From: a virus
Lineage: Duplodnaviria; Caudoviricetes
Virus record (IMG/VR): IMGVR_UViG_2739367553_000005
Location: 1-64,000 of that record
Strand: one strand, 5' to 3'
Length of the DNA: 64,000 nt
Shown here piece after piece: positions 26,312 to 27,598 of the stretch (position 1 is the stretch's first letter; each line of letters opens with the position of its first letter). A program made the position numbers and the translations under genes. The notes under the pieces were generated by a model. That model did no database searches, had not been told where the DNA came from, and saw only the letters and a list, made by a program, of their open reading frames with translations.

Positions 26312-26365
26312 TTTTCTTTCTGCTGTTTCACGGACAGCTCCGTTTCTACGCTAAATAGCAATTTA
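26312..26365 (+). repeat. ~54-bp element copy 3 ending in inversion site S5 (26351-26365)
   Basis: TTTTCTTTCTGCTGTTTCACGGACAGCTCCGTTTCTACG-CTAAATAGCAATTTA. Confidence 0.9.
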
Positions 26366-26641
26366 GATAACAAGTTTAATTCGGCGGATATGATATTAAG
26401 ATCTTATACTATACCGTCTGCTACATATGCATCTGGTAAAGGTGCTATACAAATTAACGGATTCACAGCTGTGCCAAGCGGATACGCTGTTTATGGCAGC
26501 AGTGTTGATACTGGTCAGTCTGCTACGATGATAGCCGATCTTAACACAGTATCAGGGAGCAATGCGTATCTATCTTATTATTCTTCCGCGCAAGTAACTA
26601 CTGCAATTATAGTAAGACTGATATTGATAAAAATACCTTAA
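26351..26641 (+). CDS. silent alternative tail-fibre C-terminus (cassette B)
   Basis: open from CTA AAT AGC AAT TTA (LNSNL) through the in-frame ATG at 26390 to the stop at 26641; no RBS of its own. Confidence 0.85.
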   Translation, partial: LNSNLDNKFNSADMILRSYTIPSATYASGKGAIQINGFTAVPSGYAVYGSSVDTGQSATMIADLNTVSGSNAYLSYYSSAQVTTAIIVRLILIKIP

Positions 26642-26650
26642 ATGATCATT

Positions 26651-27598
26651 TTAGAAATAAACATCCTGTAGTGTGACCTTATCTCCTGCGTTCAAAGCTG
26701 TTGCCAATAACAAATACATTGCATTATCATGTATGCTTACATAGCCATACTTTCCAGTATCATATTGCATATATTTATAAAACCCACCACCACTGGGGAT
26801 AACGTCTGCCGGAAGATCACAAAGCTTAATTTCAGTGGTGGAAGCAGCGTACCATTCATTTAACCCCCACATGGAAAATCGTTTTATTTGACCATATTTT
26901 GTAAAAATCACTTTAGCCGAAGCATCTGAATTAATTGTGAACTTCGTCTCATAAGTTTTATAACTTAAATTGCTATTTAGTACTTTAACTACCGCGGTCA
27001 AATTTTCGCCAATTTCTAGATCTTCACCCATGCCGATCCGCTCCCAGAGGTTATGCACAAATGCTGACGTTGGGATTTTATTCTGATCATTTGCATCCAT
27101 GTTGGTAAGCATATTCTTCAGCAGAGCATTCTGATCCAGGTTCATTGTAACTGCTATGGACTTTGATATCTTCCCAAGTGCAGAAGCAATAGCCTCCCCA
27201 GCTATGATGTTGGCCAGTTCCGTGGCCTGCTCAAAGAGGGTGTTTATATCAACACTCCCATCAGTCCCCACCTTAATCCCATTGCTTCCCTTTACCAATC
27301 CCAAGGTGTTCTGTGTAGCTGTCTTTGCACTTAAACTACCGTCAGCACTTACCTCCATTGTTGTGCCGTCTGGCTTTACCGTTCCGACACTGTTTGCCGT
27401 GGCTTTGCTTGTTCCCAAAGCCGAAACCTGCCAATAATCTAAATTGGTAGGCAATGTCCCAATAGGAGGCTTAGTGTGAACCACATAACTACTCCCATCA
27501 TAGGATACTAAATTTAATATTTCATACTGCTTATTAGGATTGTATTCTTCCGAAGGTAGCATTCCTATCGTGCCATATACAACTTCTGTCTCATCCAT
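26651..27598 (-). CDS. tail fibre / receptor-binding protein with switchable tip (cassette A = 26651-26980)
   Basis: 315 aa; GTVKPDG, ATQNTLGLVKG fibre repeats; LNSNL site at 26966-26980, then a beta-rich head (LCDLPADVIP). Confidence 0.85.
   Translation of the reverse strand: MDETEVVYGTIGMLPSEEYNPNKQYEILNLVSYDGSSYVVHTKPPIGTLPTNLDYWQVSALGTSKATANSVGTVKPDGTTMEVSADGSLSAKTATQNTLGLVKGSNGIKVGTDGSVDINTLFEQATELANIIAGEAIASALGKISKSIAVTMNLDQNALLKNMLTNMDANDQNKIPTSAFVHNLWERIGMGEDLEIGENLTAVVKVLNSNLSYKTYETKFTINSDASAKVIFTKYGQIKRFSMWGLNEWYAASTTEIKLCDLPADVIPSGGGFYKYMQYDTGKYGYVSIHDNAMYLLLATALNAGDKVTLQDVYF
26966..26980 (-). other. inversion site S6 inside the fibre gene
   Basis: exact reverse complement of 26351-26365. 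Confidence 0.9.

What the first reader, a model, noticed from the sequence alone, without database searches (positions are those of the whole stretch)
26351..26980. Invertible tail-fibre tip switch bounded by a perfect 15-bp inverted repeat (LNSNL site)
Seen: CTAAATAGCAATTTA occurs on + at 26351-26365 and on - at 26966-26980, inside the fibre gene. Both copies read LNSNL in frame. The + copy opens a stop-free 96-codon frame (LNSNLDNKFNSADMILRSY...IKIP) with no RBS of its own, ending tail-to-tail with the fibre gene (stops at 26641 and 26651). Inverting the 630-bp segment would swap tip A for tip B without changing frame. Established: Mu Gin/gix and P1 Cin systems switch host range this way. 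Inference: this is a host-range switch, and unusually no invertase gene lies next to it.
Basis: partly seen in the sequence, partly recalled or inferred. Interest (0 to 1): 0.9.

Follow-up and report, generated by a model that had tools for sequence, protein, structure and literature searches.

The report
Invertible phage tail-fibre tip switch
A prophage in a Lacrimispora-type gut or soil bacterium keeps a silent, backwards spare tip for its receptor-binding tail protein behind a 15-bp inverted repeat, and related phages are found in both orientations, so this is a real host-range switch of a known kind whose flipping enzyme is not encoded beside it.

Summary
CTAAATAGCAATTTA lies at 26351-26365 (+) and 26966-26980 (-), the latter inside the 315-aa fibre gene 26651..27598 (-). 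Both copies read LNSNL. The + copy opens a 96-codon frame that ends 9 nt from the fibre stop.

- Of 86 non-redundant related fibre genes, 68 have an inverted partner site 100-800 nt past the stop.
- The partner opens a median of 102 in-frame codons, against 3 and 0 in the other two frames.
- Five pairs of near-identical phages differ only by precise inversion or shuffling of the segment between the sites.
- The four codons N-S-N-L are frozen at the DNA level.
- The central bases co-vary between partner sites, and an AAAT-N4-ATTT dyad is kept across site classes.
- Tip A folds like the receptor-binding head of phages PSA and TP901-1, starting at the site.

No recombinase gene lies within 29 kb. 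A Xer-like tyrosine recombinase (56462..57508) is the best local candidate, but several switch-bearing genomes lack it.

The window also holds a remote spare tip (16847..17266), and the genome holds a second switch on contig C8. The scan met this NSNL system before on other DNA. I rate it a new variant of a known kind.

The parts
26651..27598 (-). Tail-fibre / receptor-binding protein gene (315 aa, P0001). The constant part is residues 1-206, the junction LNSNL is 207-211, and the head domain (tip A) is 211-315.
   Evidence: It lies after the Dit (DUF6711) and Tal genes and before the holin and endolysin genes. It has weak PHROG hits to tail fibre and virion protein families. More than 1000 homologues share the N-terminal part and diverge right after LNSNL.
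26966..26980 (-). Recombination site S1 inside the fibre gene (CTAAATAGCAATTTA, reads LNSNL).
   Evidence: Codons 208-211 use a single codon each in 27 of 27 non-redundant relatives chosen by N-terminal identity.
26651..26965 (-). Tip A: the head domain now expressed, with its stop codon.
   Evidence: AlphaFold model. Residues 211-315 match the Listeria phage PSA RBP head (Z 10.8, rmsd 2.2 A, 97 residues aligned) and the TP901-1 RBP head (Z 9.9).
26351..26365 (+). Recombination site S2, inverted relative to S1. With its flanking G it forms a perfect 6+4+6 dyad, CTAAAT-AGCA-ATTTAG.
26351..26641 (+). Tip B: a silent 96-codon cassette plus stop. It has no start signals of its own.
   Evidence: Its opening LNSNL-DNKFNSADM fits the LNSNL-xxK-x-N-xx-D-hydrophobic linker seen in about ten expressed tips. 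A single-sequence model is all-beta, with pLDDT 63.
26366..26965 (.). The 600-bp invertible segment between the two sites, made of tip A and tip B tail to tail.
   Evidence: Homologous segments are found inverted in nature.
26289..26350 (+). Conserved non-coding flank of S2 ('type 1' flank). On the - strand it carries the leader and ribosome-binding site of the next gene, 26112..26306.
   Evidence: three direct copies in the window. (the same flank beside partner sites in 9 other phages; other phages have unrelated flanks).
16847..17266 (-). Remote spare tip C (about 138 aa), starting at a 12-nt core AATAGCAATTTA (17255-17266, reads NSNL). It has no fibre N-terminus in front of it.
   Evidence: Relatives keep an equivalent store between the lysis genes and the portal gene. 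Distal tips are found on the fibre in near-identical phages.
16015..16029 (+). Site S3 (GTAAATAGCAATTTA), inverted relative to the tip C site. It is followed by 16 open codons and a perfect 20-bp terminator hairpin.
   Evidence: (repeat I13).
24438..24476 (+). Degenerate direct copy of the type-1 flank plus the left part of the core (TAAATAGCAATTCT). The right half-site is lost.
23507..23580 (+). Second degenerate direct copy of the type-1 flank plus the left part of the core (TAAATAGCAATATT).
56462..57508 (-). Xer-like tyrosine recombinase (348 aa) in the early region. It is not at a prophage edge. It is the candidate remote invertase.
   Evidence: Pfam Phage_integrase plus SAM-like domain. 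Best NCBIfam similarity is to XerA/XerD/XerC, below the family cut-offs.

Best explanation
This is a programmed DNA-inversion switch that changes the receptor-binding head of a siphophage-type tail fibre or receptor-binding protein.

How it would work: a site-specific recombinase pairs the two inverted copies of a short dyad site (core TAAATAGCAATTTA, i.e. AAAT-N4-ATTT). It exchanges strands inside the central bases and flips the 600 bp between them. The site is written in the codons L-N-S-N-L at the end of the neck helix. The constant 206-residue N-terminal part therefore stays in place, and head A (now expressed) is replaced in frame by the silent head B. Virions made afterwards would bind a different receptor. 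A third head (16847..17266) stored about 10 kb away behind further sites could be brought in by nested inversions, as in a shufflon.

Shown: the sites, the frames, the family-wide architecture, natural flipped and shuffled forms in relatives, DNA-level constraint on the site, and the head fold of tip A.

Inferred: that this copy still flips, that tip B is a working head, and the effect on host range.

Open: the enzyme. It is not encoded beside the switch. My odds are about 0.4 for the phage's own remote Xer-like tyrosine recombinase (56462..57508), about 0.35 for a host or co-resident-element recombinase acting in trans, and the rest for something unknown.
For: 1. Architecture. Of 86 non-redundant complete fibre genes, 68 have an inverted partner site 100-800 nt past the stop. 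The in-frame open length has a median of 102.5 codons, against 3 and 0 in the other frames. 64 of 68 reach 60 codons or more, against 1 and 0. The cassette fills a median 97% of the spacer.

2. Both states exist in nature.
- Isolate genome G311 and two independent contigs share flanks at 94.7-100% identity, and the 528-bp inter-site segment is inverted at 99.8%. The predicted fusion protein P0036 has the same 211 N-terminal residues and the silent tip at 99%.
- Three more simple flips: L094/L105, L061/L064 and L127/L143.
- In L104/L105 and L102/L107 the distal tip lies next to the fibre while the lysis block stays colinear.

3. Constraint on the DNA. Among 123 conserved degenerate codon columns, only 7 use one codon, and 4 of these are the consecutive codons 208-211.

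4. Site classes. The central bases differ between phage groups (AGCA, AACA, AGTA, AGTG, AGCG) but match between the two partner sites of a phage. The AAAT/ATTT arms are kept. Hybrid sites place the crossover within core positions about 5-13.

5. Rarity and pairing of the site. The 14-mer is found 107 times in 49 genomes of the genus, against 9 for the reversed control. About 26 occurrences form close convergent pairs, and I saw no close divergent pair.

6. Structure. The neck helix ends at the site, and residues 211-315 match the PSA, TP901-1, bIL170 and p2 RBP heads at Z 9.4-10.8.

7. A second switch. A second switch with the same site sits in an unrelated 248-aa fibre on contig C8 of the same genome. 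Its silent tip is 69% identical to an expressed tip of the P0001 family.
Against: Tip B has no detectable relative in 1.8 billion representative proteins. Its fold could not be assigned: best Z was 6.1, and the best Foldseek E-value was 0.03.

No recombinase is linked to the switch.
- The only genes shared by five switch-bearing prophages are tail-tip and lysis genes.
- At least eight genomes of the genus have site pairs but no homologue of the window's Xer-like recombinase at E <= 1e-30.
- The conserved 204-aa host serine recombinase is missing from G320, which has pairs.

The identity between the sites is only 15 bp, which is short for a recombinase site.
Confidence: 0.82

Rival explanations
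1. The switch is flipped by the prophage's own remote Xer-like tyrosine recombinase (56462..57508), acting 29.5 kb from its sites. It may also act in trans on the second switch on contig C8.
For: It is a second recombinase. It lies in the early region rather than at a prophage edge, on the same strand as the late genes, with a core-binding SAM-like domain plus a catalytic domain. Another tyrosine recombinase lies at C16:83 kb.

Orthologues at 84-98% identity lie 22-30 kb upstream of switch-bearing fibres in G309, G340, G348 and IMG/VR record G349.

G306, G334 and G326 carry the orthologue together with two or three site pairs in the same prophage, although my search had not found the P0001-type fibre N-terminus in G306 and G334.

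Short sites in which the central bases co-vary between partners suit a tyrosine recombinase overlap region. This last point is my inference from what is known of lox, FRT and the fim switch.
Against: G311 has no homologue at E <= 1e-30, yet its prophage is the one seen in both orientations. G304, G313, G316, G319, G321, G322 and G342 also lack a homologue while carrying site pairs.

The complete 41-kb provirus G353 has a switch and only one recombinase, at its end, 23% identical to this one.

Two class-B phage records show only a 600-aa serine recombinase.
Confidence: 0.4
2. A recombinase of the host, or of another resident element, flips the switch in trans. The phage carries only the sites.
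For: The same core site serves unrelated fibres in two prophages of one genome whose tyrosine recombinases are 29% identical.

No non-structural gene is shared by switch-bearing prophages.

A single-copy 204-aa serine recombinase is present in 44 of 49 genomes of the genus at 80-100% identity, including G311, G316, G319 and G321.

There is published precedent for globally acting invertases, and for a phage inversion locus without a flanking recombinase (PMC6109161).
Against: The 204-aa protein is only a generic resolvase-domain protein. It scores 51.8 bits against the Mpi family, whose cut-off is 272.

It is absent from G320, which has site pairs.

In this genome the 14-mer is found only in prophage tips, so no host target is visible.

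The host's dif-like palindrome beside its Xer gene (G000:C3:503161) does not resemble the site.
Confidence: 0.35
3. The arrangement is a frozen relic or a parts store. Tips are exchanged only over evolutionary time, by recombination between phages at the conserved LNSNL linker, and this prophage no longer inverts.
For: The flipped state of this very phage is not in any database searched.

Tips are mosaic across fibre families.

The two extra site copies at 23566 and 24462 have lost their right half.
Against: Both sites are perfect, and the silent frame is intact.

Near-identical phages differ by clean inversions of exactly the inter-site segment.

A flipped form also exists where the partner site fronts no tip at all. 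P0112 is a fibre ending in 41 junk codons that are 100% identical to the antisense of a cargo gene in L041. Exchange of functional modules between phages would not produce this.
Confidence: 0.12
4. Inversion is driven by the short homology alone (RecA, a phage annealing protein, or replication template switching), with no dedicated site-specific recombinase.
For: No linked recombinase could be found.
Against: 14-15 bp is below the homology usually needed for RecA-type exchange. This rests on established knowledge and was not tested here.

A pure homology model does not explain why the AAAT-N4-ATTT dyad is kept while the centre changes between classes. It also does not explain why partner sites restore symmetry, as in class B, where a G at position 14 is matched by a C at position 1 of the partner.
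Confidence: 0.05

Closest known systems
Second inversion locus of tRNA-Met-integrated Bifidobacterium prophages 689b-1 / Bb423phi2 (Mavrich et al. 2018, PMC6109161)
   Same: A segment of about 500 bp, holding the 3' end of a tail gene and a small opposed gene, is inverted between related prophages at a very short site (8 bp there). No recombinase flanks the locus. The authors proposed an invertase supplied in trans.
   Different: The host phylum, the site and the proteins all differ. That case rests on one pair of prophages with genes of unknown function. Here there are hundreds of loci, a defined dyad site, several site classes, remote spare tips, and a head domain of known fold.
Rin shufflon of dnaJ2-integrated Bifidobacterium prophages (PMC6109161)
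   Same: A constant RBP N-terminus is combined with several variable C-terminal cassettes separated by short crossover sites (11 bp there). The RBP is related to TP901-1. The predicted enzyme is an armless XerD-like tyrosine recombinase distinct from the integrase.
   Different: In Rin the recombinase gene flanks the cassettes and the cassettes are contiguous. Here nothing flanks them. The only Xer-like gene is 29.5 kb away and is missing from many switch-bearing relatives. Part of the store lies beyond the lysis genes.
Mu G segment/Gin, P1 C segment/Cin, e14 Pin, p15B Min
   Same: The logic is the same: a constant fibre N-terminus, alternative C-termini in opposite orientation, and in-frame fusion by inversion that changes host range. 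Min also uses multiple sites.
   Different: Those systems use a serine invertase encoded next to the segment, sites of about 26-34 bp, and usually a co-inverted assembly gene. Here there is no serine recombinase on the contig, the site is a 14-15 bp dyad, there is no chaperone gene in the segment, and the host is Gram-positive.
Receptor-binding proteins of Listeria phage PSA (6r5w) and lactococcal phages TP901-1, bIL170 and p2 (4ios, 2fsd, 2wzp; chimera 3da0)
   Same: Tip A has the same head fold, placed after a helical neck. Head swapping between TP901-1 and p2 is structurally documented (PDB entry 3da0, listed).
   Different: There is no detectable sequence similarity (4-11% identity in the structural alignments). 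Those phages carry one fixed head and no inversion sites.

Membership tests
Gin/Cin/Pin/Min serine-invertase fibre switches | A serine invertase gene encoded next to the invertible segment | tested here: not met
   The PF00239 search of the whole genome finds none on contig C16. The ORFs around the switch have no recombinase domain.
Gin/Cin/Pin/Min serine-invertase fibre switches | Constant N-terminal part fused in frame to alternative C-termini lying in opposite orientation | tested here: met
Gin/Cin/Pin/Min serine-invertase fibre switches | gix/cix-type sites of about 26 bp with a 2-bp asymmetric crossover, plus a Fis-dependent enhancer | tested here: inconclusive
   Identity between the sites is 15 bp, and conservation across relatives is 14 nt. 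The centre of the dyad is the palindromic GC. I made no formal comparison with gix, and no enhancer can be sought without the enzyme gene.
Rin-type tyrosine-recombinase RBP shufflon | Short crossover sites in front of each variable cassette, with all inversions occurring at these sites | tested here: met
Rin-type tyrosine-recombinase RBP shufflon | An armless XerD-like recombinase gene flanking the cassette array | tested here: not met
   The nearest tyrosine recombinase is 29.5 kb away. It is absent from G311 and seven other genomes that carry site pairs.
Rin-type tyrosine-recombinase RBP shufflon | Catalysis by a tyrosine recombinase | not testable with these tools
   There are only indirect hints: a short site, and central bases that co-vary between partners.
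Phage inversion locus without a flanking recombinase (bifidophage 689b-1 type) | An invertible segment of about 0.5 kb with the 3' end of a tail gene and an opposed small ORF, a short site, and no recombinase beside it | tested here: met
   The description of that locus is in PMC6109161.
TP901-1 / p2 / PSA-type RBP head domain (for tip A) | A C-terminal beta head domain of that fold following a helical neck | tested here: met
   Z 10.8 (6r5w, rmsd 2.2 A, 97 aligned), 9.9 (4ios) and 9.8 (2fsd). The model range starts at residues 206-213. This is a monomer model, and the head has pLDDT of about 62-85.
TP901-1 / p2 / PSA-type RBP head domain (for tip B) | The same head fold | tested here: inconclusive
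   The single-sequence model has pLDDT 63 and six strands. The best Z is 6.1. The bIL170 head gives only Z 4.1, and pyocin fibre and tailspike ends give Z 4.7-5.2.

The most novel reading that the evidence does not exclude
The NSNL site may be a universal adaptor served by a recombinase that is not part of the switch. That enzyme could come from the host, or from any co-resident prophage of the Xer-like type. One enzyme would then reshuffle the receptor-binding heads of several unrelated prophages in a cell.

The same site, with its 'type 1' flank, may also capture cargo genes behind the fibre in an integron-like way. The three direct site-plus-flank copies at 23507-23580, 24438-24476 and 26289-26365 bracket a 186-aa gene and an Abi-alpha gene.
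Probability: 0.25. Interest if true: 0.8.

Novelty: new variant of a known kind. Interest (0 to 1): 0.62.

Why it matters
Phages of Lachnospiraceae are among the commonest viruses of the gut, and few have been propagated in culture.

A switch that swaps their receptor-binding head means that a prophage sequence does not fix its host range. One lysogen can release particles with two or three specificities.

The very short site, hidden in four codons, falls below the repeat lengths that inverton finders usually need. The system is probably undercounted for that reason.

The site is the same in more than a hundred loci and in unrelated fibres, and it sits exactly at the neck-head boundary. That makes it a natural, portable joint for exchanging heads.

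The missing enzyme is a concrete, testable question: is it a remote phage Xer-like recombinase or a host recombinase?

Tried and rejected
The assembly has no contig with either flipped junction.

Tip B homologues. The word-index search among longer proteins found none. The exhaustive HMMER search found only the cassette's own 83-aa ORF. An apparent 28% match to P0083 shrank to the 15-residue linker once composition was corrected.

Tip B fold. There was no clear match.

Sequence search of solved structures with the fibre profile found nothing.

Family-wide genome search drew one genome per genus and found nothing. The genus search worked.

Search for a linked recombinase.
- Pfam on the neighbouring ORFs. 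The 521-aa gene beside the distal cassette is the portal.
- Recombinase families in four host genomes and ten viral records.
- All-against-all comparison of five switch-bearing prophages.
- Metagenome records could not be searched as handles.

Integrase as invertase: rejected as a general answer. The integrases are unrelated to each other (23-29% identity) while the site is identical.

Host Xer/dif. The dif-like palindrome found next to a host Xer gene does not resemble the site.

A universal accessory motif beside partner sites: none. The flanks fall into unrelated families.

Promoter and terminator scans showed nothing above shuffles.

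Full report
THE OBSERVATION

The 15-mer CTAAATAGCAATTTA is present without mismatch at 26351-26365 (+) and 26966-26980 (-). The second copy lies in the 315-aa ORF 26651..27598 (-), where it encodes L207-N-S-N-L211.

The first copy reads LNSNL too. It opens 96 codons that stop at 26639-26641, 9 nt from the fibre stop at 26651-26653. The other two + frames are open for 0 and 1 codons, and all frames on the fibre strand are broken. Only 24 of 20,000 shuffles are open that far.

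In the 5.63-Mb genome the 14-nt core occurs five times. Three copies are in this prophage. Two form another inverted pair in a prophage on contig C8. The repeat is real and not chance.

THE GENE

The window is G000:C16:221-64220. Names attached to homologues place the genome in Lacrimispora or a close relative, family Lachnospiraceae.

The ORF lies downstream of Dit (DUF6711), a 658-aa Tal-like protein and a 371-aa fibre-like protein. It lies upstream of a holin and of an amidase endolysin with choline-binding repeats.

A model built on 32 homologues shows helices up to residue 209 and then an eight-strand beta domain. Residues 211-315 superpose on four receptor-binding heads:
- Listeria phage PSA (Z 10.8, rmsd 2.2 A, 97 residues)
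- TP901-1 (Z 9.9)
- bIL170 (Z 9.8)
- p2 (Z 9.4)

The site therefore sits exactly at the neck-head boundary of a receptor-binding protein.

THE FAMILY

More than 1000 proteins share the N-terminal 206 residues at 45-89% identity, and they diverge completely right after LNSNL.

I collected loci from the genus, from IMG/VR and from metagenomes.

Of 86 non-redundant complete genes, 68 have an inverted partner site 100-800 nt beyond the stop. The frame set by the partner site is open for a median of 102.5 codons, against 3 and 0 in the other frames. It fills 97% of the spacer.

In 49 genomes of the genus the exact 14-mer occurs 107 times, against 9 for the reversed control. About 26 copies form close convergent pairs. 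I saw no close divergent pair.

BOTH ORIENTATIONS EXIST

The prophage of isolate G311 encodes fibre P0037. A 49.8-kb metagenome contig and a separate Logan contig carry the same phage, with flanks 94.7-100% identical. In them the 528 bp between the sites are inverted at 99.8% identity. Their fibre P0036 is the predicted fusion: the same 211 N-terminal residues plus the formerly silent tip at 99%. The bases just outside the 14-mer stay with their flanks, so the exchange is inside it.

Three further pairs show the same simple flip: L094/L105, L061/L064 and L127/L143.

In L104/L105 and L102/L107 a distal tip has moved next to the fibre while the lysis block between them kept its orientation. This needs nested inversions.

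P0112 is a fibre that ends in 41 junk codons. These are identical to what inversion at a partner site without a cassette would give in L041. The site therefore recombines even where no tip is gained.

THE SITE

I chose relatives by N-terminal identity (68% or more, 27 genes), not by the site. In them, 123 conserved degenerate codon columns have a median normalised codon entropy of 0.69. Only 7 columns use a single codon, and four of these are the consecutive codons 208-211, AAT AGC AAT TTA. The DNA, not only the peptide, is under constraint.

More distant phage groups have other versions of the centre: AACA, AGTA, AGTG, AGCG, and a G at core position 4. In each group the fibre site and its partner carry the same version, and the arms AAAT and ATTT are kept.

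In class B the change ATTTA to ATTTG is mirrored by CAAAT in the partner, which restores the dyad.

Differences at the outer left positions stay with the left flank. A difference at core positions 13-14 travels with the cassette. This confines the crossover to about positions 5-13.

The flanks of partner sites belong to unrelated families, so no accessory motif is general.

A symmetric site whose centre is free to vary, provided both partners agree, is what a site-specific recombinase with a central overlap region would produce. It speaks against a mechanism based on homology alone. That it points to a tyrosine rather than a serine enzyme is my inference, not a result.

THE ENZYME

No serine recombinase is on the contig. 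The nearest tyrosine recombinase is 56462..57508, 29.5 kb away. It is a 348-aa Xer-like protein among methylase genes in the early region.

In its favour:
- Orthologues at 84-98% identity lie 22-30 kb upstream of switch-bearing fibres in G309, G340, G348 and G349.
- G306, G334 and G326 carry it together with two or three site pairs.

Against it as a general answer:
- G311, whose phage is seen in both states, has no homologue at E <= 1e-30. Seven other genomes with site pairs also have none.
- Five switch-bearing prophages share only tail-tip and lysis genes.
- Their integrases are 23-29% identical to one another.
- Two class-B records show only a 600-aa serine recombinase.

A 204-aa host serine recombinase is single-copy in 44 of 49 genomes. 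However, it is a generic resolvase-domain protein, and it is absent from G320, which has pairs.

A dif-like palindrome beside a host Xer gene does not resemble the site.

The enzyme remains unidentified. My odds are given with the explanations.

MORE THAN TWO SITES IN THE WINDOW

ORF 16847..17341 (-) contains the 12-nt core at 17255-17266, reading NSNL. It is followed by a 138-residue beta-rich tip, and no fibre N-terminus precedes it. An inverted site at 16015-29 (+) faces it and is followed by a terminator hairpin.

Relatives keep an equivalent store between the lysis genes and the portal gene.

Two further direct copies of the S2 flank plus the left part of the core lie at 23507-23580 and 24438-24476. 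They have lost the right half-site, and they bracket cargo genes.

A second complete switch lies in an unrelated 248-aa fibre on contig C8. Its silent tip is 69% identical to an expressed tip of the P0001 family.

WHAT IS NOT SHOWN

- Inversion in this strain has not been observed. Reads could not be obtained, and the assembly has one orientation only.
- Tip B has no sequence relatives apart from the 15-residue linker it shares with many expressed tips.
- The single-sequence model of tip B is an all-beta domain of middling confidence (pLDDT 63) without a clear structural match.

COMPARISON WITH WHAT IS KNOWN

The logic is that of Mu Gin, P1 Cin and p15B Min, but the defining adjacent serine invertase is absent.

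The closest published cases are in Bifidobacterium prophages (PMC6109161):
- The Rin shufflon has short sites, a TP901-1-like RBP, and an adjacent armless tyrosine recombinase.
- A second locus of about 500 bp has an 8-bp site and no flanking recombinase. Its authors proposed an invertase acting in trans.

Systematic inverton surveys list tail fibres among the targets (PMC9881135). Searches for this system in Lachnospiraceae phages found no description.

Earlier notes of this scan describe the same NSNL-type switch in another gut Clostridia phage (e1-1941124) and remote second recombinases in such phages (e1-1999422). I treated these as leads only.

VERDICT

This is a real programmed head-swapping switch and a new variant of a known kind. 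Three things set it apart: the minimal dyad site written in four codons, its spread across many Lachnospiraceae phages and unrelated fibres, and the split store of spare tips with the unlinked enzyme.

Noticed in passing
G000 contig C8, 68507-69226 (outside the window): A second complete switch with the same 14-nt core, in another prophage of the same genome. It has a 248-aa fibre (C8 68862..69608, -) with an unrelated N-terminus and a 115-aa silent tip. That tip is 69% identical to the expressed tip of P0027.
   Followed up: partly
window 23507-23580, 24438-24476, 26289-26365: Three direct copies of a 36-74 nt element (leader and ribosome-binding site of the next gene, plus the left part of the inversion core). 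They bracket cargo: a 186-aa ORF (23762..24322) and an Abi-alpha gene (24667..25512). The two outer copies lack the right half-site. They could be scars of cassette capture or simply duplicated gene starts.
   Followed up: partly
window 24458-24556 (-): A small ORF encodes a 32-residue peptide with one hydrophobic helix and a charged tail (MVGGTTILLTIVVVICKAIAERISKEKELLFS). It ends inside the 24462 site copy. It looks like a type I toxin or a holin-like peptide.
   Followed up: no
window 1-40437: The late-gene order is unusual. The terminase region is followed by Dit-Tal-fibre-lysis, and only then by portal-capsid-tail-tape measure (portal 13207..14652, tape measure 2496..7229). The same order, with a spare-tip store just before the portal, is seen in G309, L105 and L140. 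G311 and G353 have the canonical order.
   Followed up: partly
window 14941-15915, 24667-25512, 31033-31539, 34750-36935, 54765-56015: The prophage is rich in defence-type cargo: AbiH, Abi-alpha, DUF4365, FRG plus a DprA-like protein, and an AbiJ-N-terminal-domain protein kinase.
   Followed up: no
window 18200-19648 (-): A 482-aa secreted-looking protein with a thrombospondin C-terminal-like domain and two Big_2 domains lies between the endolysin gene and the spare-tip store.
   Followed up: no
G000 contig C3, 503161-503189: A perfect dif-like palindrome (11-bp arms AGTTAACATAA / TTATGTTAACT around TTTTTT) lies 2.2 kb from a 351-aa host Xer-type recombinase gene. This arrangement resembles single-recombinase XerS/XerH systems.
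   Followed up: no
L041 (G316:C30) 11762-12557, and protein P0112: In this relative the silent tip has been replaced by an alpha/beta-hydrolase-like cargo gene, but the partner site remains. A database protein shows the flipped state, which truncates the fibre. This may be an OFF state.
   Followed up: partly
G348 (Lacrimispora xylanisolvens), C1:496596-497640 and C1:2276346-2276959: In this genome both the Xer-like phage recombinase and the 204-aa host serine recombinase are interrupted by stop codons. The fibre there has only a degenerate partner site at its stop. The assembly is 89% complete with 6% contamination, so sequence errors are possible.
   Followed up: no
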